The notes beneath the pieces were generated by a model. That model was not told the DNA's origin and did no database searches. It was given only the letters and a program-made list of their open reading frames with translations. A stretch of DNA of 64,000 nt from sequence record PQ306573.1. One strand, written 5' to 3'. The position numbers and the translations under genes are program-made. Below, one piece after another: positions 25,349 through 55,456 of the stretch; the first letter of the stretch is position 1; each line of letters opens with the position of its first letter. Source of the stretch: Escherichia phage vB_EcoM_PTE-Eco05.

Positions 25349-25635
25349 TTCTTTATGCTAAGGTAAAATCCGTTGAGAATGGATATGAAAGTGACCAACG
25401 TGCAGCTAAAGCACTAGTCGATGACTACGGTATTCTGACTAACTTTGAGGTTGAAAAGGTTTACGTCGACCGTTCATCTTCACAGGTTAAATTACTTTGG
25501 GAAGACCGCAAATTTAATAGTGTGAACTTTGATTTCTTTATTGAAACTGAATCAGGCCCTCTTGAATATGATATTTTCAAGAACCCTTTGAAATTACGTT
25601 GCATTGAATATAACTACATTAATATGGTACGGTAA
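25345..25635 (+). CDS. hypothetical protein
   Basis: 96-aa ORF overlapping previous stop (ATGA). Confidence 0.6.
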   Translation: MILYAKVKSVENGYESDQRAAKALVDDYGILTNFEVEKVYVDRSSSQVKLLWEDRKFNSVNFDFFIETESGPLEYDIFKNPLKLRCIEYNYINMVR

Positions 25636-25731
25636 AACGTAATTTGCTTTAAGAATTATGTGTTATTATTAATCTACCCTCTATTACCAAAGGTGCTCCC
25701 TCAAGTGCCTTTCATAATAGAAAGTTATTTA

Positions 25732-25806
25732 GGCCCTGTAGCTCAATGGGAGAGCTGTCAGCTCATAACTGATAGGTAGCTGGATCGAAACCAGCCAGGG
25801 CCACCA
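25732..25806 (+). tRNA. tRNA with CAU anticodon (Met, or Ile if lysidine-modified)
   Basis: Hand fold: 7-bp acceptor GGCCCTG/CAGGGCC, D-arm GCTC..GAGC, anticodon loop CTCATAA, T-arm GCTGG-ATCGAAA-CCAGC, encoded CCA. Confidence 0.8.
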
Positions 25807-25812
25807 AACAAA

Positions 25813-25884
25813 CGGTGCATCGTATAAAGGTTATTACGGGGAGCTGTTAACTCCTTTATCTTGGTTCGAGTCCAAGTGCGCCAG
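25813..25884 (+). tRNA. tRNA-Asn (GUU) candidate
   Basis: Anticodon stem GGGAG/CTCCT with loop CTGTTAA; T-arm CTTGG-TTCGAGT-CCAAG; acceptor has one 1-72 mismatch; no encoded CCA. Confidence 0.55.
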
Positions 25885-25929
25885 TAATTTAAACGAAGTA
25901 AATTAAGTGCTCTATCCAAATAATAAATA

Positions 25930-25948
25930 CTCCTATATTTTATAGGAG
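25930..25948 (+). promoter_or_regulatory. hairpin sequestering the Shine-Dalgarno of the endonuclease gene
   Basis: CTCCTATA-TTT-TATAGGAG inverted repeat includes AGGAG 10 nt before ATG 25959. Confidence 0.5.
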
Positions 25949-25958
25949 ATAATTGGTA

Positions 25959-26625
25959 ATGAGCATTTGTAAACATTGTAATATGGAATTTGATATTTCT
26001 AATAAACCTAAAGGATGGATGGCTAACCACACTAGATGGTGTAAATCCAACCCTAAATTGGAATTGTATAAAGAAAGTTCTAAATCAGCCATTGCAGCAA
26101 TGAATAAAGCACGTATAGCTTCAGGTAATTTAAACCAGTATGTTGTATCTAAAAAAGACTGGTGTTCCTGTAGTAATTTCGGAAGAGACTAGACAAAAAT
26201 TGTCAGCCGCTTCATTAGGTAGAGAACACTCTGAGGAATCTAGAATAAAAATATCTAATGCTCTGAAAAAATGGTTGAATGAAAACCCCGATAAACATCC
26301 TTGGAAGAAAAATACAAAATTTAAATCTGTGCCTTGTGAATTTTTGAAATCTAAATTAATAGAAAACGGAATTTCATTTATTGAAGAATACCAACCGGTT
26401 AAAAACCGAGCGTATTGCACGGATATTGCTTTAATAGATAAAAAGATTATTATTGAAGTTAATGGAAACCAACATTACTCCAATCCTAAGAAAAAGATTT
26501 TGGCCCCTTATTATAAAGAACGCCATGATATTATAAAATCATTAGGATGGGAAATATATGAACTTCATTATGCTGAAGTTTATAAAGAAGATATTGTAAA
26601 TAATTTAATTGCCTCTATAGTGTAA
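25959..26625 (+). pseudogene. frameshifted homing-endonuclease-like gene (Zn-finger + NUMOD3-like + DUF559/Vsr-like nuclease domain)
   Basis: Two overlapping frames (25953..26192 and 26140..26625) join at an A6 run near 26151-26156; NUMOD3-like SEETRQKLSAASLG and SEESRIKISNALK; C-terminal IIEVNGNQHY...ERHDIIKSLGWEIYEL resembles DUF559. Confidence 0.6.
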
Positions 26626-26686
26626 TGGATAGCATATAATCATTCTAAGGTTAATGGTGAGAGTTCAAATCTTTCTAGAGGCACCA
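26611..26686 (+). tRNA. tRNA-Arg (UCU)
   Basis: Acceptor GCCTCTA/TAGAGGC, anticodon loop ATTCTAA, T-arm GAGAG-TTCAAAT-CTTTC, encoded CCA; overlaps last 15 nt of the upstream ORF. Confidence 0.75.
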
Positions 26687-26704
26687 ACTTTAAGTGAGGA
26701 AAAT

Positions 26705-27049
26705 ATGAAAGGCAATATTTATCTGGTAGTTCATGACTTAACGTTTTATTTTAACGAACGTGAAACAGTTATTTCTCATCGATTGATTAATTCGTTATAT
26801 CAACACGCTGATTACGTTTATTTCCAAAATGAATTTGGCCATTGGAAGTTCATTAAAAATCGTTCTGGGTTAACTAGTTTTGAATACTTTGACCGTAAAG
26901 ACCTTTTAAACGAAATCCCATTGCAACATCGGTTCCAGAAACGCGAATCATTATATTATTGCCGTCATATACCAAACGCCGAATGTGTTAATGAAGCGAT
27001 TAATCTATGGCGTCGGCGTCGAGAGCAAATTGATGGTATGCCAAAATAA
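26705..27049 (+). CDS. hypothetical protein
   Basis: 114 aa from MKGNIYLVVHD after GAGGA; ORF track start 26654 would lie inside the tRNA. Confidence 0.6.
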   Translation: MKGNIYLVVHDLTFYFNERETVISHRLINSLYQHADYVYFQNEFGHWKFIKNRSGLTSFEYFDRKDLLNEIPLQHRFQKRESLYYCRHIPNAECVNEAINLWRRRREQIDGMPK

Positions 27050-52345: not shown

Positions 52346-52819
52346 ATGCTATTATCAGGCGCAAAATATAAAGAAGAAAAACAAAAATTTTATGATGCAC
52401 AGAATGGTAAGTGTCCTATTTGCCGCCGTGAATTAGACCCTGATGTTCAAGGTAACCATCTTGACCACGACCACGAATTAAACGGGCCAAAAGCCGGTAG
52501 AGTTCGTGGATTACTCTGTAATCTGTGCAATGCAGCAGAAGGCCAAATGAAGCATAAGTTTAATCGTTCCGGACTTAAAGGACGTGATGTCGACTACCTC
52601 GAATGGCTTGAAGCTCTTCTTGCTTATTTGAAACAAGATTATTCTGATAATAATATCCATCCTAATTTTGTTCCAGACAAAACTAAAGAGTTCTCAAGAC
52701 TAGGTAAAGAGGAAATGATGGCTGAGATGCTTCAAAGAGGATTTGAATATAATGAATCTGATACTAAAACACAATTAATAGCTTCATTCAAAAAGCAGCT
52801 TAGAAAGAGTTTAAAATGA
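52346..52819 (+). CDS. 49: endonuclease VII (Holliday junction resolvase)
   Basis: 157 aa, MLLSGAKYKEEKQKFYDAQNGKCPICRREL...HLDHDHELNGPKAG..., close to recalled T4 gp49. Confidence 0.95.
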   Translation: MLLSGAKYKEEKQKFYDAQNGKCPICRRELDPDVQGNHLDHDHELNGPKAGRVRGLLCNLCNAAEGQMKHKFNRSGLKGRDVDYLEWLEALLAYLKQDYSDNNIHPNFVPDKTKEFSRLGKEEMMAEMLQRGFEYNESDTKTQLIASFKKQLRKSLK

Positions 52820-54633
52820 AAATTGAAAAAGAAATTGAAGGACTGATTCATAAAACTAATAAAGACCTTTTAAACGAGAATGCTAATAAAGATTCTCGTG
52901 TTTTTCCAACTCAACGGGACCTTATGGCTGGTATTGTGTCTAAGCACATTGCCAAAAATATGGTCCCGTCTTTTATTATGAATGCGCATGAAAGCGGAAT
53001 CATTCACATGCATGATATTGATTATTCTCCTGCTCTTCCATTTACTAATTGTTGTTTAGTAGATTTAAAAGGAATGCTTGAGAATGGATTTAAATTAGGC
53101 AATGCTCAAATTGAAACGCCTAAATCGATTGGTGTTGCTACTGCAATTATGGCACAAATTACTGCACAAGTTGCTTCACACCAGTATGGCGGAACTACAT
53201 TTGCGAATGTAGATAAAGTACTTTCTCCTTATGTTAAACGCACCTATGCAAAACATATTGAGGATGCAGAAAAATGGCAAATCGCTGATGCGTTGAATTA
53301 TGCTCAATCTAAAACAGAAAAAGACGTATACGATGCATTCCAAGCTTACGAATATGAAGTAAATACTCTCTTTAGTTCAAACGGGCAAACACCTTTTGTA
53401 ACAATTACATTTGGTACAGGAACTGACTGGACTGAACGAATGATTCAGAAAGCAATTCTGAAAAATCGTATTAAAGGTCTTGGTCGTGATGGGATAACTC
53501 CTATTTTTCCTAAACTTGTTATGTTTGTTGAAGAAGGTGTTAATCTTTATAAAGATGATCCGAACTATGATATTAAACAACTTGCGTTAGAATGTGCAAG
53601 CAAAAGAATGTATCCTGACATTATTTCGGTTAAGAATAATAAAGCTATTACCGGTTCTTCAGTTCCTGTTTCTCCGATGGGTTGTCGTAGTTTCTTGAGC
53701 GTATGGAAAGATTCGACTGGTAATGAAATTCTTGATGGACGTAATAATCTTGGTGTTGTAACACTGAATCTTCCTCGCATCGCGTTAGATTCTTATATTG
53801 GAACACAGTTCAATGAACAGAAATTTGTTGAGCTATTTAACGAACGAATGGACCTGTGTTTTGAAGCCTTGATGTGTAGAATTAGTTCTTTAAAGGGTGT
53901 TAAAGCTACTGTTGCTCCTATTCTTTACCAAGAAGGTGCATTCGGTGTTCGTCTTAAACCCGATGACGATATAATTGAGTTATTTAAAAACGGTAGAAGT
54001 TCAGTTTCCCTAGGATACATTGGTATTCACGAATTGAATATTCTTGTCGGTCGTGATATTGGACGAGAAATTTTGACTAAAATGAATGCTCATCTTAAAC
54101 AGTGGACTGAAAGAACTGGATTTGCTTTTAGTTTATATTCTACTCCTGCTGAAAACCTTTGTTATCGCTTCTGTAAACTTGATACAGAAAAATATGGAAG
54201 CGTAAAAGATGTTACCGATAAAGGTTGGTACACTAATAGTTTCCATGTTTCAGTAGAAGAAAATATTACTCCGTTTGAAAAGATTTCTCGTGAAGCACCA
54301 TATCATTTCATTGCGACCGGCGGTCACATTTCTTATGTTGAACTTCCTGATATGAAAAATAACTTAAAGGGCCTTGAGGCTGTATGGGATTATGCTGCAC
54401 AACATTTAGATTATTTTGGTGTTAACATGCCGGTAGATAAATGTTTTACATGTGGAAGTACCCATGAAATGTCTCCTACCGAAAACGGATTTGTTTGTTC
54501 AGTTTGTGGAGAAAGTGATCCTAAAAAGATGAACACAATAAGAAGAACATGCGGATATCTTGGAACTCCTAGCGTTGTTCCATGGAATTTAGGTAAAATG
54601 AAAGAAATGGTAAAACGAGTAAAACATGCATAG
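52816..54633 (+). CDS. nrdD: anaerobic ribonucleoside-triphosphate reductase
   Basis: 605-aa uninterrupted ORF; C-terminal zinc-ribbon Cys cluster (CFTCGS...CSVCGE) and glycyl-radical region. Confidence 0.93.
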   Translation: MKIEKEIEGLIHKTNKDLLNENANKDSRVFPTQRDLMAGIVSKHIAKNMVPSFIMNAHESGIIHMHDIDYSPALPFTNCCLVDLKGMLENGFKLGNAQIETPKSIGVATAIMAQITAQVASHQYGGTTFANVDKVLSPYVKRTYAKHIEDAEKWQIADALNYAQSKTEKDVYDAFQAYEYEVNTLFSSNGQTPFVTITFGTGTDWTERMIQKAILKNRIKGLGRDGITPIFPKLVMFVEEGVNLYKDDPNYDIKQLALECASKRMYPDIISVKNNKAITGSSVPVSPMGCRSFLSVWKDSTGNEILDGRNNLGVVTLNLPRIALDSYIGTQFNEQKFVELFNERMDLCFEALMCRISSLKGVKATVAPILYQEGAFGVRLKPDDDIIELFKNGRSSVSLGYIGIHELNILVGRDIGREILTKMNAHLKQWTERTGFAFSLYSTPAENLCYRFCKLDTEKYGSVKDVTDKGWYTNSFHVSVEENITPFEKISREAPYHFIATGGHISYVELPDMKNNLKGLEAVWDYAAQHLDYFGVNMPVDKCFTCGSTHEMSPTENGFVCSVCGESDPKKMNTIRRTCGYLGTPSVVPWNLGKMKEMVKRVKHA

Positions 54634-55456
54634 GTATTATATAATTTATAAAATAACAAATATAATTAATTCAAAGGAATATATCGGTGCTATGCGCACC
54701 GATAACATAAATGATGGTTATATGGGGTCAGGAACATTGATTCGTGCCGCTTTATTAAAATATGGTAGAAAAAATTTTAATAAAGAAATTTTACATGTTT
54801 TTGATAATGAAAAACAAATGTATGATAAAGAAGCTGAACTTGTAACCGAAGAGTATTGTCTAAAAGAAAATACATATAATATTAAACCTGGTGGAAAAGG
54901 TGGAACTGCCTATGAACAGACACTTGAACATCGCCGTAAAAATAGTTTAGCAAATAAAGGTAAAAAGAGAACAGAAGAAACTAAAATAGCTATTTCACGT
55001 GCTTTAAAGAAATATAAACGTACGCCAGAGCATCAAGCAAATTTAAATAAAGCCGTAAGCATAGCTATGAAGCGAAAAGATGTTAGAAGTAAATTAGCTG
55101 GAGAGCGGTCTGAGAAAGATAAATTATCTATATCAAACGGTGTTAAAAAATATTACAATTCTTTGAGTGAAGAAGAACGCGAACTTCATCGCAAGCGAAT
55201 TATTGAAGGTAAAAAGAATTCTCCCATGTCATTGGAATCTAGACAAAAGCTTTCAAAAGCTTTAAAAGGGCTTCAAGTTGGTTCAAAAAATCCAATGTAT
55301 GGAAAAATTTCTCCAACTAGCAAAACCGTTTCAGTTGACGGTATTAAATATGATTCAATTAAAAAGTGCTCAAATGCCATAAAAGTTTCTAGACATCTTA
55401 TACTAAAACGCTGTAATTCTACTGATGAAGCTTGGAAAAATTGGATATTATTATGA
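54626..55456 (+). CDS. free-standing GIY-YIG homing endonuclease (seg-like)
   Basis: N-terminal YIIYKITN...KEYIGAM GIY-YIG motif; repeated NUMOD3-like ETKIAISRALK / RQKLSKALKG; overlaps nrdD end and nrdG start. Confidence 0.85.
   Translation: MHRYYIIYKITNIINSKEYIGAMRTDNINDGYMGSGTLIRAALLKYGRKNFNKEILHVFDNEKQMYDKEAELVTEEYCLKENTYNIKPGGKGGTAYEQTLEHRRKNSLANKGKKRTEETKIAISRALKKYKRTPEHQANLNKAVSIAMKRKDVRSKLAGERSEKDKLSISNGVKKYYNSLSEEERELHRKRIIEGKKNSPMSLESRQKLSKALKGLQVGSKNPMYGKISPTSKTVSVDGIKYDSIKKCSNAIKVSRHLILKRCNSTDEAWKNWILL

What the first reader, a model, noticed from the sequence alone, without database searches (positions are those of the whole stretch)
25959..26625. Frameshifted endonuclease-like gene in the tRNA cluster, with slippery A-run, hairpin-occluded ribosome-binding site and tRNA overlap
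Two overlapping frames encode, if joined by a +1 shift at an A6 run (about 26151-26156), a single protein with an N-terminal Cys/His zinc-finger-like segment, two NUMOD3-like motifs and a C-terminal DUF559/Vsr-like nuclease-like domain. This is an unusual homing-endonuclease architecture (neither GIY-YIG nor HNH). Its Shine-Dalgarno sits inside a CTCCTATA/TATAGGAG hairpin, and its 3-prime end overlaps tRNA-Arg by 15 nt. The frameshift could be a pseudogenising mutation, a sequencing error in a homopolymer, or programmed slippage.
Basis: partly seen in the sequence, partly recalled or inferred. Interest (0 to 1): 0.6.

Follow-up and report, generated by a model that had tools for sequence, protein, structure and literature searches.

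The report
Frameshift-broken homing endonuclease gene in phage
A selfish DNA-cutting gene (a Vsr-like homing endonuclease) in the tRNA cluster of a T4-like coliphage has been broken by one extra A in a run of A's; this is ordinary decay of a mobile gene, not programmed frameshifting.

Summary
ORF-A (25959-26192) and ORF-B (26140-26625) overlap in frames 0 and +1 around an A6 run (26151-26156). Removing one A gives a 221-aa protein. All 9 aligned orthologous loci carry A5 and one intact 666-nt ORF, and 22 T4-like phage records encode the full protein in a single frame. dN/dS is 0.06-0.10 on both sides of the run, so the frameshift is an insertion private to this lineage, not programmed slippage. 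Two Logan assemblies from different SRA runs match the window exactly, A6 included. No other gene in about 50 kb is split. Random sequencing error is therefore unlikely.

The hairpin over the Shine-Dalgarno sits just downstream of a conserved T4 late-promoter motif. This is the late-only translation control already described for I-TevI, segB and mobE.

The leader, endonuclease gene and overlapping tRNA-Arg form a 781-bp cassette found sporadically beside tRNA genes in several phage genera.

Verdict: a recently pseudogenised member of a known family. Interest is low.

The parts
25732..25806 (+). tRNA-Met(CAT). This is the last sequence shared with phages that lack the endonuclease; the polymorphic block begins right after it.
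   Evidence: ARAGORN, Rfam 62.4 bits, alignment with mogra, AV115 and LF82-4.
25813..25884 (+). tRNA-Asn(GTT). It lies immediately upstream of the cassette. It is absent from the endonuclease-free phage mogra.
25907..26687 (+). Conserved mobile cassette: leader, endonuclease gene and tRNA-Arg. Homology to the divergent copies in DCP548 and PSD2001 starts exactly at 25907 (GTGCTCT). In PSD2001 it ends at the 3' end of tRNA-Arg.
   Evidence: blastn boundaries 25907-26687 for PSD2001 and 25907 onward for DCP548; alignment A1.
25904..25912 (+). 5' strand of the outer leader helix. It pairs with 25961-25969, which is the G of the AUG plus codons 2-3. It is present only on transcripts that start upstream of the late promoter.
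   Evidence: The 70-nt fold gives -19.9 kcal/mol, z = -4.7, with 0 of 200 shuffles as stable. Equivalent leaders fold in six orthologous loci, z -2.8 to -6.3.
25922..25929 (+). T4-type late-promoter motif AATAAATA. The core ATAAATA is invariant in all 7 loci compared, and the first base is T in the other six. The predicted transcription start is A25935, inside the 5' arm of the hairpin.
   Evidence: Alignment A5. The consensus TATAAATA lies at -13 to -6, and A or T is common at -13 in most of the T4-like phages studied (PMC1524935).
25930..25948 (+). Inner hairpin, CTCCTATA / TATAGGAG. It sequesters the Shine-Dalgarno AGGAG at 25944-25948.
   Evidence: RNA starting at 25935 is essentially unstructured, -1.5 kcal/mol.
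25959..26192 (+). ORF-A. Residues 1-66 are the native N-terminus (CCHC zinc finger and a helix). They are followed by 11 out-of-frame residues and a stop.
26151..26156 (+). A6 run, the site of the one-base insertion. All 9 aligned orthologous loci have A5.
   Evidence: Alignment A1. The same A6 is present in Logan contigs from SRR12795745 and SRR29581963.
26140..26625 (+). ORF-B, in the +1 frame. It holds the NUMOD3 repeats and the Vsr-like nuclease domain, with family-invariant residues E143, D155, E166, N168, G169 and H172 (joined-protein numbering). There is no Shine-Dalgarno within 5-10 nt of its ATG.
   Evidence: sequence read.
26264..26264 (+). Private G-to-T substitution. It changes Arg102 to Leu in the second NUMOD3 motif, at a position where Arg is the family's majority residue.
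   Evidence: Column-by-column comparison with 7 close relatives; consensus.
26611..26686 (+). tRNA-Arg(TCT), the allele linked to the endonuclease gene. Its first 15 nt encode the last four residues and the stop codon of the endonuclease.
   Evidence: The same overlap occurs in Klebsiella phage orthologues. The allele differs from the tRNA-Arg of the endonuclease-free phage mogra.

Best explanation
The region 25959-26625 is one gene. It is a free-standing homing endonuclease gene of the Vsr-like ('EDxHD'/DUF559) family, with an N-terminal CCHC zinc finger, NUMOD3 DNA-binding motifs and a C-terminal Vsr-fold nuclease. In this phage lineage it has recently been inactivated by insertion of one A into an A5 run, making A6.

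In intact relatives, the gene travels as a 781-bp cassette with its regulatory leader and an overlapping tRNA-Arg, and the cassette lies next to tRNA genes.

Expression is inferred to be late-only. Read-through transcripts from the upstream tRNA region fold a two-tier structure that buries the Shine-Dalgarno and the start codon. Transcripts from the T4-type late promoter inside that structure start at about 25935, lack the 5' arms and can be translated.

In the window's allele, ribosomes terminate at 26192 after 77 residues. That yields a zinc-finger stub without NUMOD3 or nuclease. ORF-B has no ribosome-binding site of its own and is probably not made, apart from rare slippage errors.

Shown here: the insertion, the intact orthologues, purifying selection on them, the fold, and the conserved promoter and structure.

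Inferred: endonuclease activity, homing, the target site, late-only expression, and loss of function.
For: 1. Insertion: all 9 aligned loci have A5 where the window has A6. Seven are about 99.4% identical to the window, and two are 77-81% identical. Each has one 666-nt ORF.
2. Single frame elsewhere: tblastn finds the full 221 aa in one piece in 22 T4-like phage records from Escherichia, Klebsiella, Enterobacter, Providencia and Acinetobacter phages.
3. Selection: dN/dS is 0.04-0.10 for codons 1-65 and for codons 66-221 between divergent orthologues where dS could be computed, so the whole single-frame protein is under selection.
4. A6 is reproducible: Logan contigs from SRR12795745 (5,620 bp compared) and SRR29581963 (1,283 bp) are 100% identical to the window and include A6.
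5. Not an error-prone assembly: of 81 CDS from phage mogra, none maps to the window as a frame-split gene.
7. Mobility signature: only 10 of 234 matching phage records carry the gene. Others, such as mogra, keep the flanks but have a different insert. The cassette boundaries 25907-26687 recur in a phage filed under another genus in its record's taxonomy (PSD2001, Gaprivervirus).
8. Regulation: the ATAAATA core is invariant, and leaders that bury the ribosome-binding site and AUG occur in all 7 loci, built from different sequences. The same design is published for I-TevI, I-TevII, I-TevIII, segB and Aeh1 mobE (PMC2988022) and for metagenomic Vsr-like endonuclease genes (PMC2677866).
9. Recurrent decay: a second, independent homopolymer frameshift allele of the same gene (P0128, 157 aa) is exactly reproduced by deleting one A from the A5 run at 26401-26405.
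Against: - No reads were inspected. The two Logan runs might be the same phage stock, or one might be the source of the window, so a systematic homopolymer artefact is not strictly excluded.
- No activity, target site or homing has been measured for any member of this orthologue group.
- The last Asp of the EDxHD motif has no invariant counterpart in the family alignment.
- Sequence-only searches against PDB did not detect the nuclease domain.
- The window's promoter octamer starts with A rather than T.
- A low level of +1 slippage on AAA-AAA-G would recreate the wild-type protein exactly, so 'dead' is inferred, not shown.
Confidence: 0.78

Rival explanations
1. Sequencing or assembly error. 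The phage really has A5 and an intact gene, and the extra A is a homopolymer miscall.
For: The change is a single base in a homopolymer, the classic error type. The rest of the gene is 99.4% identical to intact copies. Another Logan-derived protein in the same cluster (P0128) also looks like a homopolymer indel. That could mean such errors occur in those assemblies.
Against: The same A6 appears in the window and in assemblies of two different SRA runs that are otherwise 100% identical to it. None of 81 CDS from a related phage maps to the window as a frame-split gene, so this is not an error-prone assembly. A6 is short for a systematic Illumina error (general knowledge). The copy also carries a private non-synonymous change, R102L, at a conserved position, which fits relaxed constraint.
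Confidence: 0.1
2. Functional recoding. Ribosomal +1 slippage on UCU-AAA-AAA-GAC, or loss of one A by transcriptional slippage, restores the 221-aa endonuclease at a low, possibly useful level. On this reading the A5/A6 tract acts as an attenuator or reversible switch.
For: A +1 slip of tRNA-Lys from AAA to the overlapping AAA, followed by AAG-ACU-GGU, gives exactly the orthologous sequence SKKTGV. Homing endonucleases in T-even phages are kept at low levels by several mechanisms (PMC2988022).
Against: No orthologue uses the shift; all have A5 in frame. The allele is private to one lineage at the tip of a clade of near-identical intact copies. There is no slow or stop codon in the A site, since GAC follows, and no Shine-Dalgarno-like stimulator upstream of the run (sequence). 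The absence of these known +1 stimulators is judged from general knowledge of prfB-type sites. A run of six A's is shorter than the runs known for efficient transcriptional slippage (general knowledge).
Confidence: 0.05
3. Two genuine genes. On this reading, a 77-aa zinc-finger protein (ORF-A) and a separately initiated 161-aa NUMOD3-nuclease (ORF-B) work as two polypeptides.
For: Both ORFs begin with ATG and were called as genes in the Logan annotation.
Against: Orthologues have one fused ORF under purifying selection across the junction. ORF-B's ATG has no Shine-Dalgarno at 5-10 nt; the only AGG lies more than 10 nt upstream. That ATG also lies 50 nt upstream of ORF-A's stop, so termination-reinitiation coupling is not possible. 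The last 11 residues of ORF-A are out-of-frame sequence with no homologues.
Confidence: 0.03

Closest known systems
I-Bth0305I and the Vsr-like 'EDxHD' homing endonuclease family (Dassa et al. 2009, PMC2677866; Taylor et al. 2011, PMC3239194)
   Different: This gene is free-standing in a tRNA cluster, not inside an intron or intein. It has NUMOD3 plus a CCHC zinc finger, where I-Bth0305I has two NUMOD2/HTH motifs. Its core motif is D..E-V-N-G-N-Q-H-Y, with 4 rather than 5 residues between N and H. There is no invariant Asp after the His; Y184 and Y185 are invariant and D190 is present in only 29 of 41 sequences. No sequence-level hit to 3R3P was obtained.
Hef of T-even phage U5 (Sandegren et al. 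2005; placed in the Vsr-like family by Taylor et al. 2011)
   Same: It is a free-standing endonuclease of a T4-related phage that is neither GIY-YIG nor HNH, and it belongs to the Vsr-like lineage.
   Different: Hef sits between nrd genes and cleaves nrdB (PMC2988022). The gene here sits among tRNA genes. No hit in an nrd region appeared in the tblastn search, so any relationship is distant.
SegB of phage T4 (GIY-YIG; Brok-Volchanskaya et al. 2008, PMC2330249)
   Same: It occupies the same niche: a free-standing endonuclease gene inside the T-even tRNA cluster next to tRNA-Arg. SegB is described with a similar arrangement of promoter and RNA structure over its ribosome-binding site. SegB cleaves inside tRNA genes and drags neighbouring tRNA genes along by co-conversion. 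Here the tRNA-Arg allele is co-inherited with the gene.
   Different: The catalytic family is different (GIY-YIG against Vsr-like) and there is no sequence relationship. The target of the present enzyme is unknown. A SegB-like GIY-YIG gene occupies the equivalent site in phage LF82-4.
Late-promoter/hairpin translational control of I-TevI, I-TevII, I-TevIII and Aeh1 mobE (PMC2988022)
   Same: A late promoter lies just upstream of the endonuclease ORF and within an RNA structure that sequesters the ribosome-binding site on longer early and middle transcripts. Late transcripts are too short to form that structure.
   Different: Here the control is only predicted. The window's octamer is AATAAATA rather than TATAAATA. 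A second, outer helix also covers the start codon.
Defunct homing endonuclease genes in T-even phages, for example T4 I-TevIII (PMC2988022, PMC2790892)
   Same: Each is a homing endonuclease gene inactivated in one phage while functional orthologues persist in relatives.
   Different: I-TevIII is inactive because of a large deletion. Here the lesion is a single-base homopolymer insertion, so the inactivation is more recent and in principle reversible.

Membership tests
Vsr-like / 'EDxHD' homing endonucleases | C-terminal catalytic domain with the Vsr-type variant of the PD-(D/E)XK fold | tested here: met
Vsr-like / 'EDxHD' homing endonucleases | Composite catalytic motif E-D-x-H-D (Vsr D51, H64 position, H69, D97) | tested here: inconclusive
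   E143, D155, E166, N168 and H172 are invariant in 41 of 41 homologues. N168 matches the Asn that replaces Vsr H64 in I-Bth0305I. No invariant Asp follows H172: D190 is present here but in only 29 of 41 sequences, while Y184 and Y185 are invariant. No residue-level structural alignment was available. hhalign against a Vsr sequence written from memory was not significant.
Vsr-like / 'EDxHD' homing endonucleases | N-terminal NUMOD-type DNA-binding region preceding the nuclease | tested here: met
   Pfam NUMOD3 covers residues 87-103, at 20.5 bits against a cut-off of 20.4 in the joined protein and 27.1 bits in ORF-B. A repeat of the motif lies at 73-86. The NUMOD type differs from I-Bth0305I, which has NUMOD2.
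Homing endonuclease gene (functional definition) | Sporadic presence or absence among closely related genomes with conserved flanks | tested here: met
   Ten of 234 matching phage records carry the gene. Mogra, AV115 and LF82-4 share the flanks but have other inserts. The same cassette occurs in PSD2001 with unrelated immediate flanks.
Homing endonuclease gene (functional definition) | Site-specific double-strand cleavage of the endonuclease-free allele, and biased inheritance in mixed infection | not testable with these tools
   This needs purified protein and phage crosses. The only indirect hint is a hybrid tRNA-Arg in DCP548, which looks like a recombination junction.
Pfam DUF559 (PF04480) | Whole-protein score at or above the gathering threshold | tested here: met
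   The score is 21.2 bits against 20.6, which is marginal. RAP (PF08373) scores 22.9 against 24.2, just below its cut-off.
Programmed ribosomal frameshift site | The shift site and the two-frame arrangement are conserved in orthologues | tested here: not met
   All 9 aligned loci have A5 and a single frame. All 22 full-length tblastn hits are single-piece.
Programmed ribosomal frameshift site | Stimulatory context for +1 shifting (a slow or stop codon in the A site, or an upstream Shine-Dalgarno-like element) | tested here: not met
   The sequence is CAGTATGTTGTATCT-AAA-AAA-GAC. The next codon is GAC and there is no GGAGG-like element upstream. The criteria come from general knowledge of prfB-type sites.
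T-even late-promoter/hairpin control of endonuclease genes | A late-promoter motif placed so that late transcripts lack the 5' arm of a structure that sequesters the ribosome-binding site | tested here: met
   AATAAATA lies at 25922-25929, which predicts +1 at 25935 inside the 5' arm (spacing from PMC1524935). The full leader folds at -19.9 kcal/mol, z -4.7. The late-transcript version folds at only -1.5 kcal/mol. The arrangement is conserved in 7 loci. Transcript mapping was not possible.

The most novel reading that the evidence does not exclude
The A6 allele is not dead but throttled. Occasional +1 slippage of tRNA-Lys on AAA-AAA-G, or loss of one A during transcription, regenerates exactly the wild-type 221-aa enzyme. 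On this reading the A5/A6 tract works as a reversible, mutation-prone attenuator. It would let a potentially toxic endonuclease, aimed at a tRNA locus, persist after it has run out of empty target sites.

A related untested idea concerns the stop codon, which lies 15 nt inside tRNA-Arg. RNase P processing of that tRNA would remove the stop codon from the mRNA. That would make endonuclease translation and tRNA maturation mutually exclusive on any one transcript.
Probability: 0.04. Interest if true: 0.55.

Novelty: new member of a known kind. Interest (0 to 1): 0.2.

Why it matters
For annotation, the two ORFs should be merged and flagged as one frameshifted homing endonuclease pseudogene of the Vsr-like family, not called as two hypothetical proteins. 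The intact orthologues, now mostly labelled 'hypothetical protein' or mislabelled 'HNH endonuclease', can be named.

Biologically, it is a clean snapshot of the decay phase of a homing endonuclease life cycle in T-even phages. The lesion is a single-base homopolymer change in a gene that is otherwise 99.4% identical to working copies, and a second independent homopolymer lesion is seen in another assembly.

The modestly interesting part lies outside the frameshift. A Vsr-like endonuclease lineage has specialised on tRNA clusters of T4-like phages across at least five host genera. It travels fused to a particular tRNA-Arg allele, and it has left a hybrid, apparently dead tRNA-Arg in one phage. 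That parallels SegB, which uses a different catalytic fold. It offers a second system for studying how endonucleases reshuffle phage tRNA repertoires.

Tried and rejected
- Sequence-only searches of PDB, with the joined protein and with a 41-sequence profile, found no nuclease relative. They gave only weak C2H2-like zinc-finger hits (E 0.7-7). The fold had to be established by structure prediction.
- hhalign of the family profile against an E. coli Vsr sequence written from memory aligned only 22 columns, probability 0.5%. It was not used.
- The Hef/SegH paper (PMC1275590) is not held, so Hef could not be compared directly.
- Exact scans for the A6 and A5 versions of the 29-30-mer across the run found nothing in IMG/VR. 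Scans for the A6 version also found nothing in JGI metagenomes or GTDB genomes. megablast of the locus against complete E. coli genomes found nothing. The source of the window and further carriers of A6 were therefore not found beyond the two Logan runs.
- Rfam found only the three tRNAs in 25500-27000, so no known RNA family overlaps the leader.
- The generic sigma-70 and terminator scan was uninformative, with 6 promoter-like sites against 7.5 expected. It merely re-found the hairpin on the opposite strand as 'terminator-like'.
- I considered and rejected three readings. Programmed frameshifting fails because the orthologues are in frame. Two independent genes fails because ORF-B has no ribosome-binding site and selection acts across the junction. 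A novel endonuclease architecture fails because it matches the published Vsr-like family.
Full report
**What is in the sequence**

The window is a T4-like coliphage of the RB69/Mosigvirus type. It has 37.3% G+C, and its best 12-kb matches are about 96-97% identical to phages AV111 and mogra.

The finding lies between two tRNA genes. Upstream are tRNA-Met (25732-25806) and tRNA-Asn (25813-25884). Downstream is tRNA-Arg(TCT) at 26611-26686.

ORF-A runs 25959..26192 and encodes 77 aa. ORF-B runs 26140..26625 and encodes 161 aa. They overlap by 53 nt, with ORF-B in the +1 frame. The A6 run is at 26151-26156, and removing one A gives an open 221-codon frame.

The hairpin CTCCTATA/TATAGGAG (25930-25948) contains the Shine-Dalgarno AGGAG. 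The ORF's last 15 nt are the first 15 nt of tRNA-Arg.

**Nature of the frameshift**

megablast found 234 phage records matching the locus. Ten of them carry the gene. I aligned nine orthologous loci:
- seven at about 99.4% identity: F2, WFL6982, Mizar, HY126, AV111, ZQ3 and ELT1;
- two divergent ones: DCP548 at 77% and PSD2001 at 81%.

Every one has A5 where the window has A6. Each has one uninterrupted 666-nt ORF, annotated as a single CDS in several records. Apart from that base the window differs from the close relatives at only a handful of positions.

A tblastn search with the repaired protein found full-length, single-piece matches in 22 T4-like phage records. They come from Escherichia, Klebsiella, Enterobacter, Providencia and Acinetobacter phages, at 99.5% down to 50% identity.

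Between the divergent orthologues where dS could be computed, dN/dS is 0.04-0.06 for codons 1-65, upstream of the run. It is 0.06-0.10 for codons 66-221, downstream of it. Selection therefore acts on one continuous protein.

A programmed frameshift would be conserved, and this one is private to a single lineage. The local context also lacks the features of known +1 sites. The codon after the run is GAC, and there is no Shine-Dalgarno-like element upstream (the criteria are general knowledge).

**Real mutation or sequencing error**

The exact 161-aa ORF-B product is on record in two Logan assemblies from different SRA runs, SRR12795745 and SRR29581963. ORF-A was also called next to it in the first. 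The retrieved loci, 5,620 bp and 1,283 bp, are 100% identical to the window and contain A6.

I also mapped 81 annotated proteins of phage mogra onto the window. None maps as a frame-split gene. The few partial or missing ones are divergent or absent genes. The assembly is therefore not riddled with homopolymer errors.

The window's copy carries one more private change, G-to-T at 26264. It converts Arg102, the family's majority residue in the second NUMOD3 motif, to Leu.

I cannot see reads, and the two runs may be the same phage stock. I therefore leave about 10% for an artefact.

The 90%-identity protein cluster also holds a 157-aa member, P0128. Its C-terminus is reproduced exactly by deleting one A from a different A5 run, at window 26401-26405. 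The gene has eight A-runs of five or more. It is thus a large target for this type of lesion, whether biological or technical.

**What the protein is**

Pfam gives DUF559 at 21.2 bits (cut-off 20.6), NUMOD3 at 20.5 bits (cut-off 20.4; 27.1 in ORF-B alone) and RAP just below its threshold. PHROGs gives weak hits, some labelled homing endonuclease.

A homologue search returned 117 proteins. Some sources name several of them very-short-patch-repair endonuclease.

In an alignment of 41 homologues, the following are conserved:
- Cys4, Cys7, His24 and Cys28, each in 40 of 41 sequences;
- E143, D155, E166, N168, G169, H172, Y173, L181, Y184, Y185 and G196, all invariant.

An AlphaFold model of the 99%-identical orthologue P0001 has mean pLDDT 89. 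It shows a beta-beta-alpha zinc-finger unit, a helical middle region and an alpha/beta C-terminal domain.

|---|---|---|---|

RAP-domain proteins also score well in both searches.

**Comparison with known families**

I-Bth0305I is the prototype of the Vsr-like 'EDxHD' homing endonuclease family. Its members have N-terminal NUMOD motifs and a C-terminal Vsr-like nuclease. They occur in introns, in inteins and as free-standing genes. According to that paper, the family includes the Hef endonucleases of T-even phages (PMC3239194; PMC2677866).

The architecture, however, belongs to a described family.

Membership is solid for the fold and the domain order. It is inconclusive for the full catalytic motif. 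D155, N168 and H172 have clear counterparts: N168 corresponds to N208 of I-Bth0305I and H64 of Vsr. No invariant Asp follows H172, since D190 is present in only 29 of 41 sequences.

**Regulation**

Directly upstream of the hairpin lies AATAAATA (25922-25929). In six orthologous loci from four other phage groups the same position reads TATAAATA. The core ATAAATA is invariant.

TATAAATA is the T4 late promoter, located at -13 to -6. The first T was poorly conserved in most of the T4-like phages studied, where A or T is commonly found (PMC1524935). That places the predicted late start at A25935, inside the 5' arm of the hairpin.

Folding 25903-25972 gives a two-tier structure of -19.9 kcal/mol, z -4.7, with none of 200 shuffles as stable. 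Its parts are:
- an outer helix, 25904-25912 paired with 25961-25969, which covers the start codon region;
- a middle helix, CCAA/UUGG;
- the inner hairpin, which covers the Shine-Dalgarno.

RNA beginning at 25935 folds at only -1.5 kcal/mol. The six other loci form equivalent structures that bury the ribosome-binding site and AUG, using different sequences. In the Providencia phage the promoter itself is the 5' strand, and in the Acinetobacter phage CAUGAAGUA pairs with UACUUCAUG. Their z-scores run from -2.8 to -6.3.

This is the published control of I-TevI, I-TevII, I-TevIII, segB and Aeh1 mobE. Early and middle read-through transcripts cannot be translated, and late transcripts can (PMC2988022). 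The same hairpins with TATAAATA were noted upstream of metagenomic Vsr-like endonuclease genes (PMC2677866). The occluded ribosome-binding site is thus a family trait. It has nothing to do with the frameshift.

**Mobility and the tRNA context**

Homology between the window and the divergent copies starts exactly at 25907 (GTGCTCT). In PSD2001 it stops at 26687, the end of tRNA-Arg, and the immediate flanks are unrelated. The unit is therefore a 781-bp cassette of leader, endonuclease gene and tRNA-Arg.

It always sits within about 25 nt downstream of a tRNA gene:
- tRNA-Asn in the window;
- tRNA-Met in DCP548 and PSD2001;
- tRNA-Leu in the Klebsiella phages;
- tRNA-Arg in the Providencia phage;
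- tRNA-Asn in the Acinetobacter phage.

The overlap with tRNA-Arg is kept in Klebsiella phage orthologues that are only 64% identical in protein.

Phage mogra lacks the endonuclease gene. It keeps tRNA-Met and the downstream gene, but between them has a 100-nt spacer and a quite different tRNA-Arg(TCT) allele.

DCP548 has a hybrid. Its 5' half is the endonuclease-linked allele, and its 3' half is identical to the mogra allele. ARAGORN no longer recognises it as a tRNA. This looks like a recombination junction inside the tRNA gene.

In LF82-4, a GIY-YIG endonuclease gene with a similar promoter and hairpin occupies the site, and tRNA-Arg is missing.

All of this parallels SegB of T4, which sits beside tRNA-Arg. 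SegB cleaves within tRNA genes and spreads together with neighbouring tRNA genes (PMC2330249).

From this I infer, without direct evidence, that the enzyme cuts in or near the rival tRNA-Arg region. I also infer that the linked allele is resistant to it.

**Verdict**

The finding is a real but ordinary feature. It is a recently pseudogenised copy of a free-standing Vsr-like homing endonuclease gene, with the standard T-even late-only translation control.

- A real, non-programmed inactivating insertion: about 0.78.
- Sequencing artefact: about 0.10.
- Functional slippage: about 0.05.
- Two separate genes: about 0.03.

It is a new, uncharacterised member of a known family, and interest is low. 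The tRNA-linked cassette and the hybrid tRNA are the parts that might repay experimental work.

Noticed in passing
window 54626-55456 (+): A 276-aa ORF with a GIY-YIG N-terminus (YIIYKITN...YIGAMRT...GYMGSG) and NUMOD3-like repeats starts 8 nt before the stop of the 605-aa anaerobic ribonucleotide reductase gene (52816-54633). It is probably a seg-type homing endonuclease gene at the nrdD position. It is 32% identical to a 'putative endonuclease' that lies at a different site in phage mogra.
   Followed up: partly
L008 (phage DCP548) about 1721-1796; alignment A6: The tRNA-Arg next to the endonuclease gene is a hybrid. Its 5' half matches the endonuclease-linked allele. Its 3' half (GAAGGTTAGAATCCTTCTGTCTCGACCA) is identical to the allele of the endonuclease-free phage mogra. 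The acceptor-stem halves no longer match, and ARAGORN finds no tRNA there. It looks like a gene-conversion scar.
   Followed up: partly
L012 (phage LF82-4) 841-1509: At the same genomic site, after tRNA-Met, a GIY-YIG homing endonuclease gene replaces the Vsr-like cassette, and tRNA-Arg is absent. Its leader (CATAAATA followed by a hairpin over AGGAG) folds at -20 kcal/mol, z -6.8. The site is a hotspot occupied by endonucleases of different families.
   Followed up: partly
protein P0128 (Logan contig of 2,135 bp); equivalent to window 26401-26405: This is a second, independent frameshift allele of the same gene. The 157-aa product ends ...QPVKTERIARILL, exactly as expected if one A is lost from another A5 run. 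Its contig could not be fetched.
   Followed up: partly
window 26611-26625: The endonuclease stop codon lies 12-15 nt inside tRNA-Arg. RNase P cleavage at the tRNA 5' end (26611) would therefore remove the stop codon from the mRNA. The overlap is conserved in Klebsiella phage orthologues. The consequences for expression are untested.
   Followed up: no
window 25633/25642 junction compared with L001-L003 996-1511: The close relatives F2, WFL6982 and Mizar, and also DCP548 (L008 341-856), carry an extra 516-nt ORF (hypothetical protein) between the Y07B-like gene and tRNA-Met. The window lacks it.
   Followed up: no
L010 (phage mogra) 808-907: In the endonuclease-free phage, a 100-nt non-coding spacer of unknown nature lies between tRNA-Met and tRNA-Arg, in place of tRNA-Asn and the cassette. 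It was not checked against RNA families.
   Followed up: no
public annotation of orthologues: The intact orthologues are labelled inconsistently: 'hypothetical protein' in most records, 'HNH endonuclease' in two (phi1_146055 and phi1_092060), and unannotated in F2, HY126, AV111 and PSD2001. The HNH label is not supported by the fold.
   Followed up: yes
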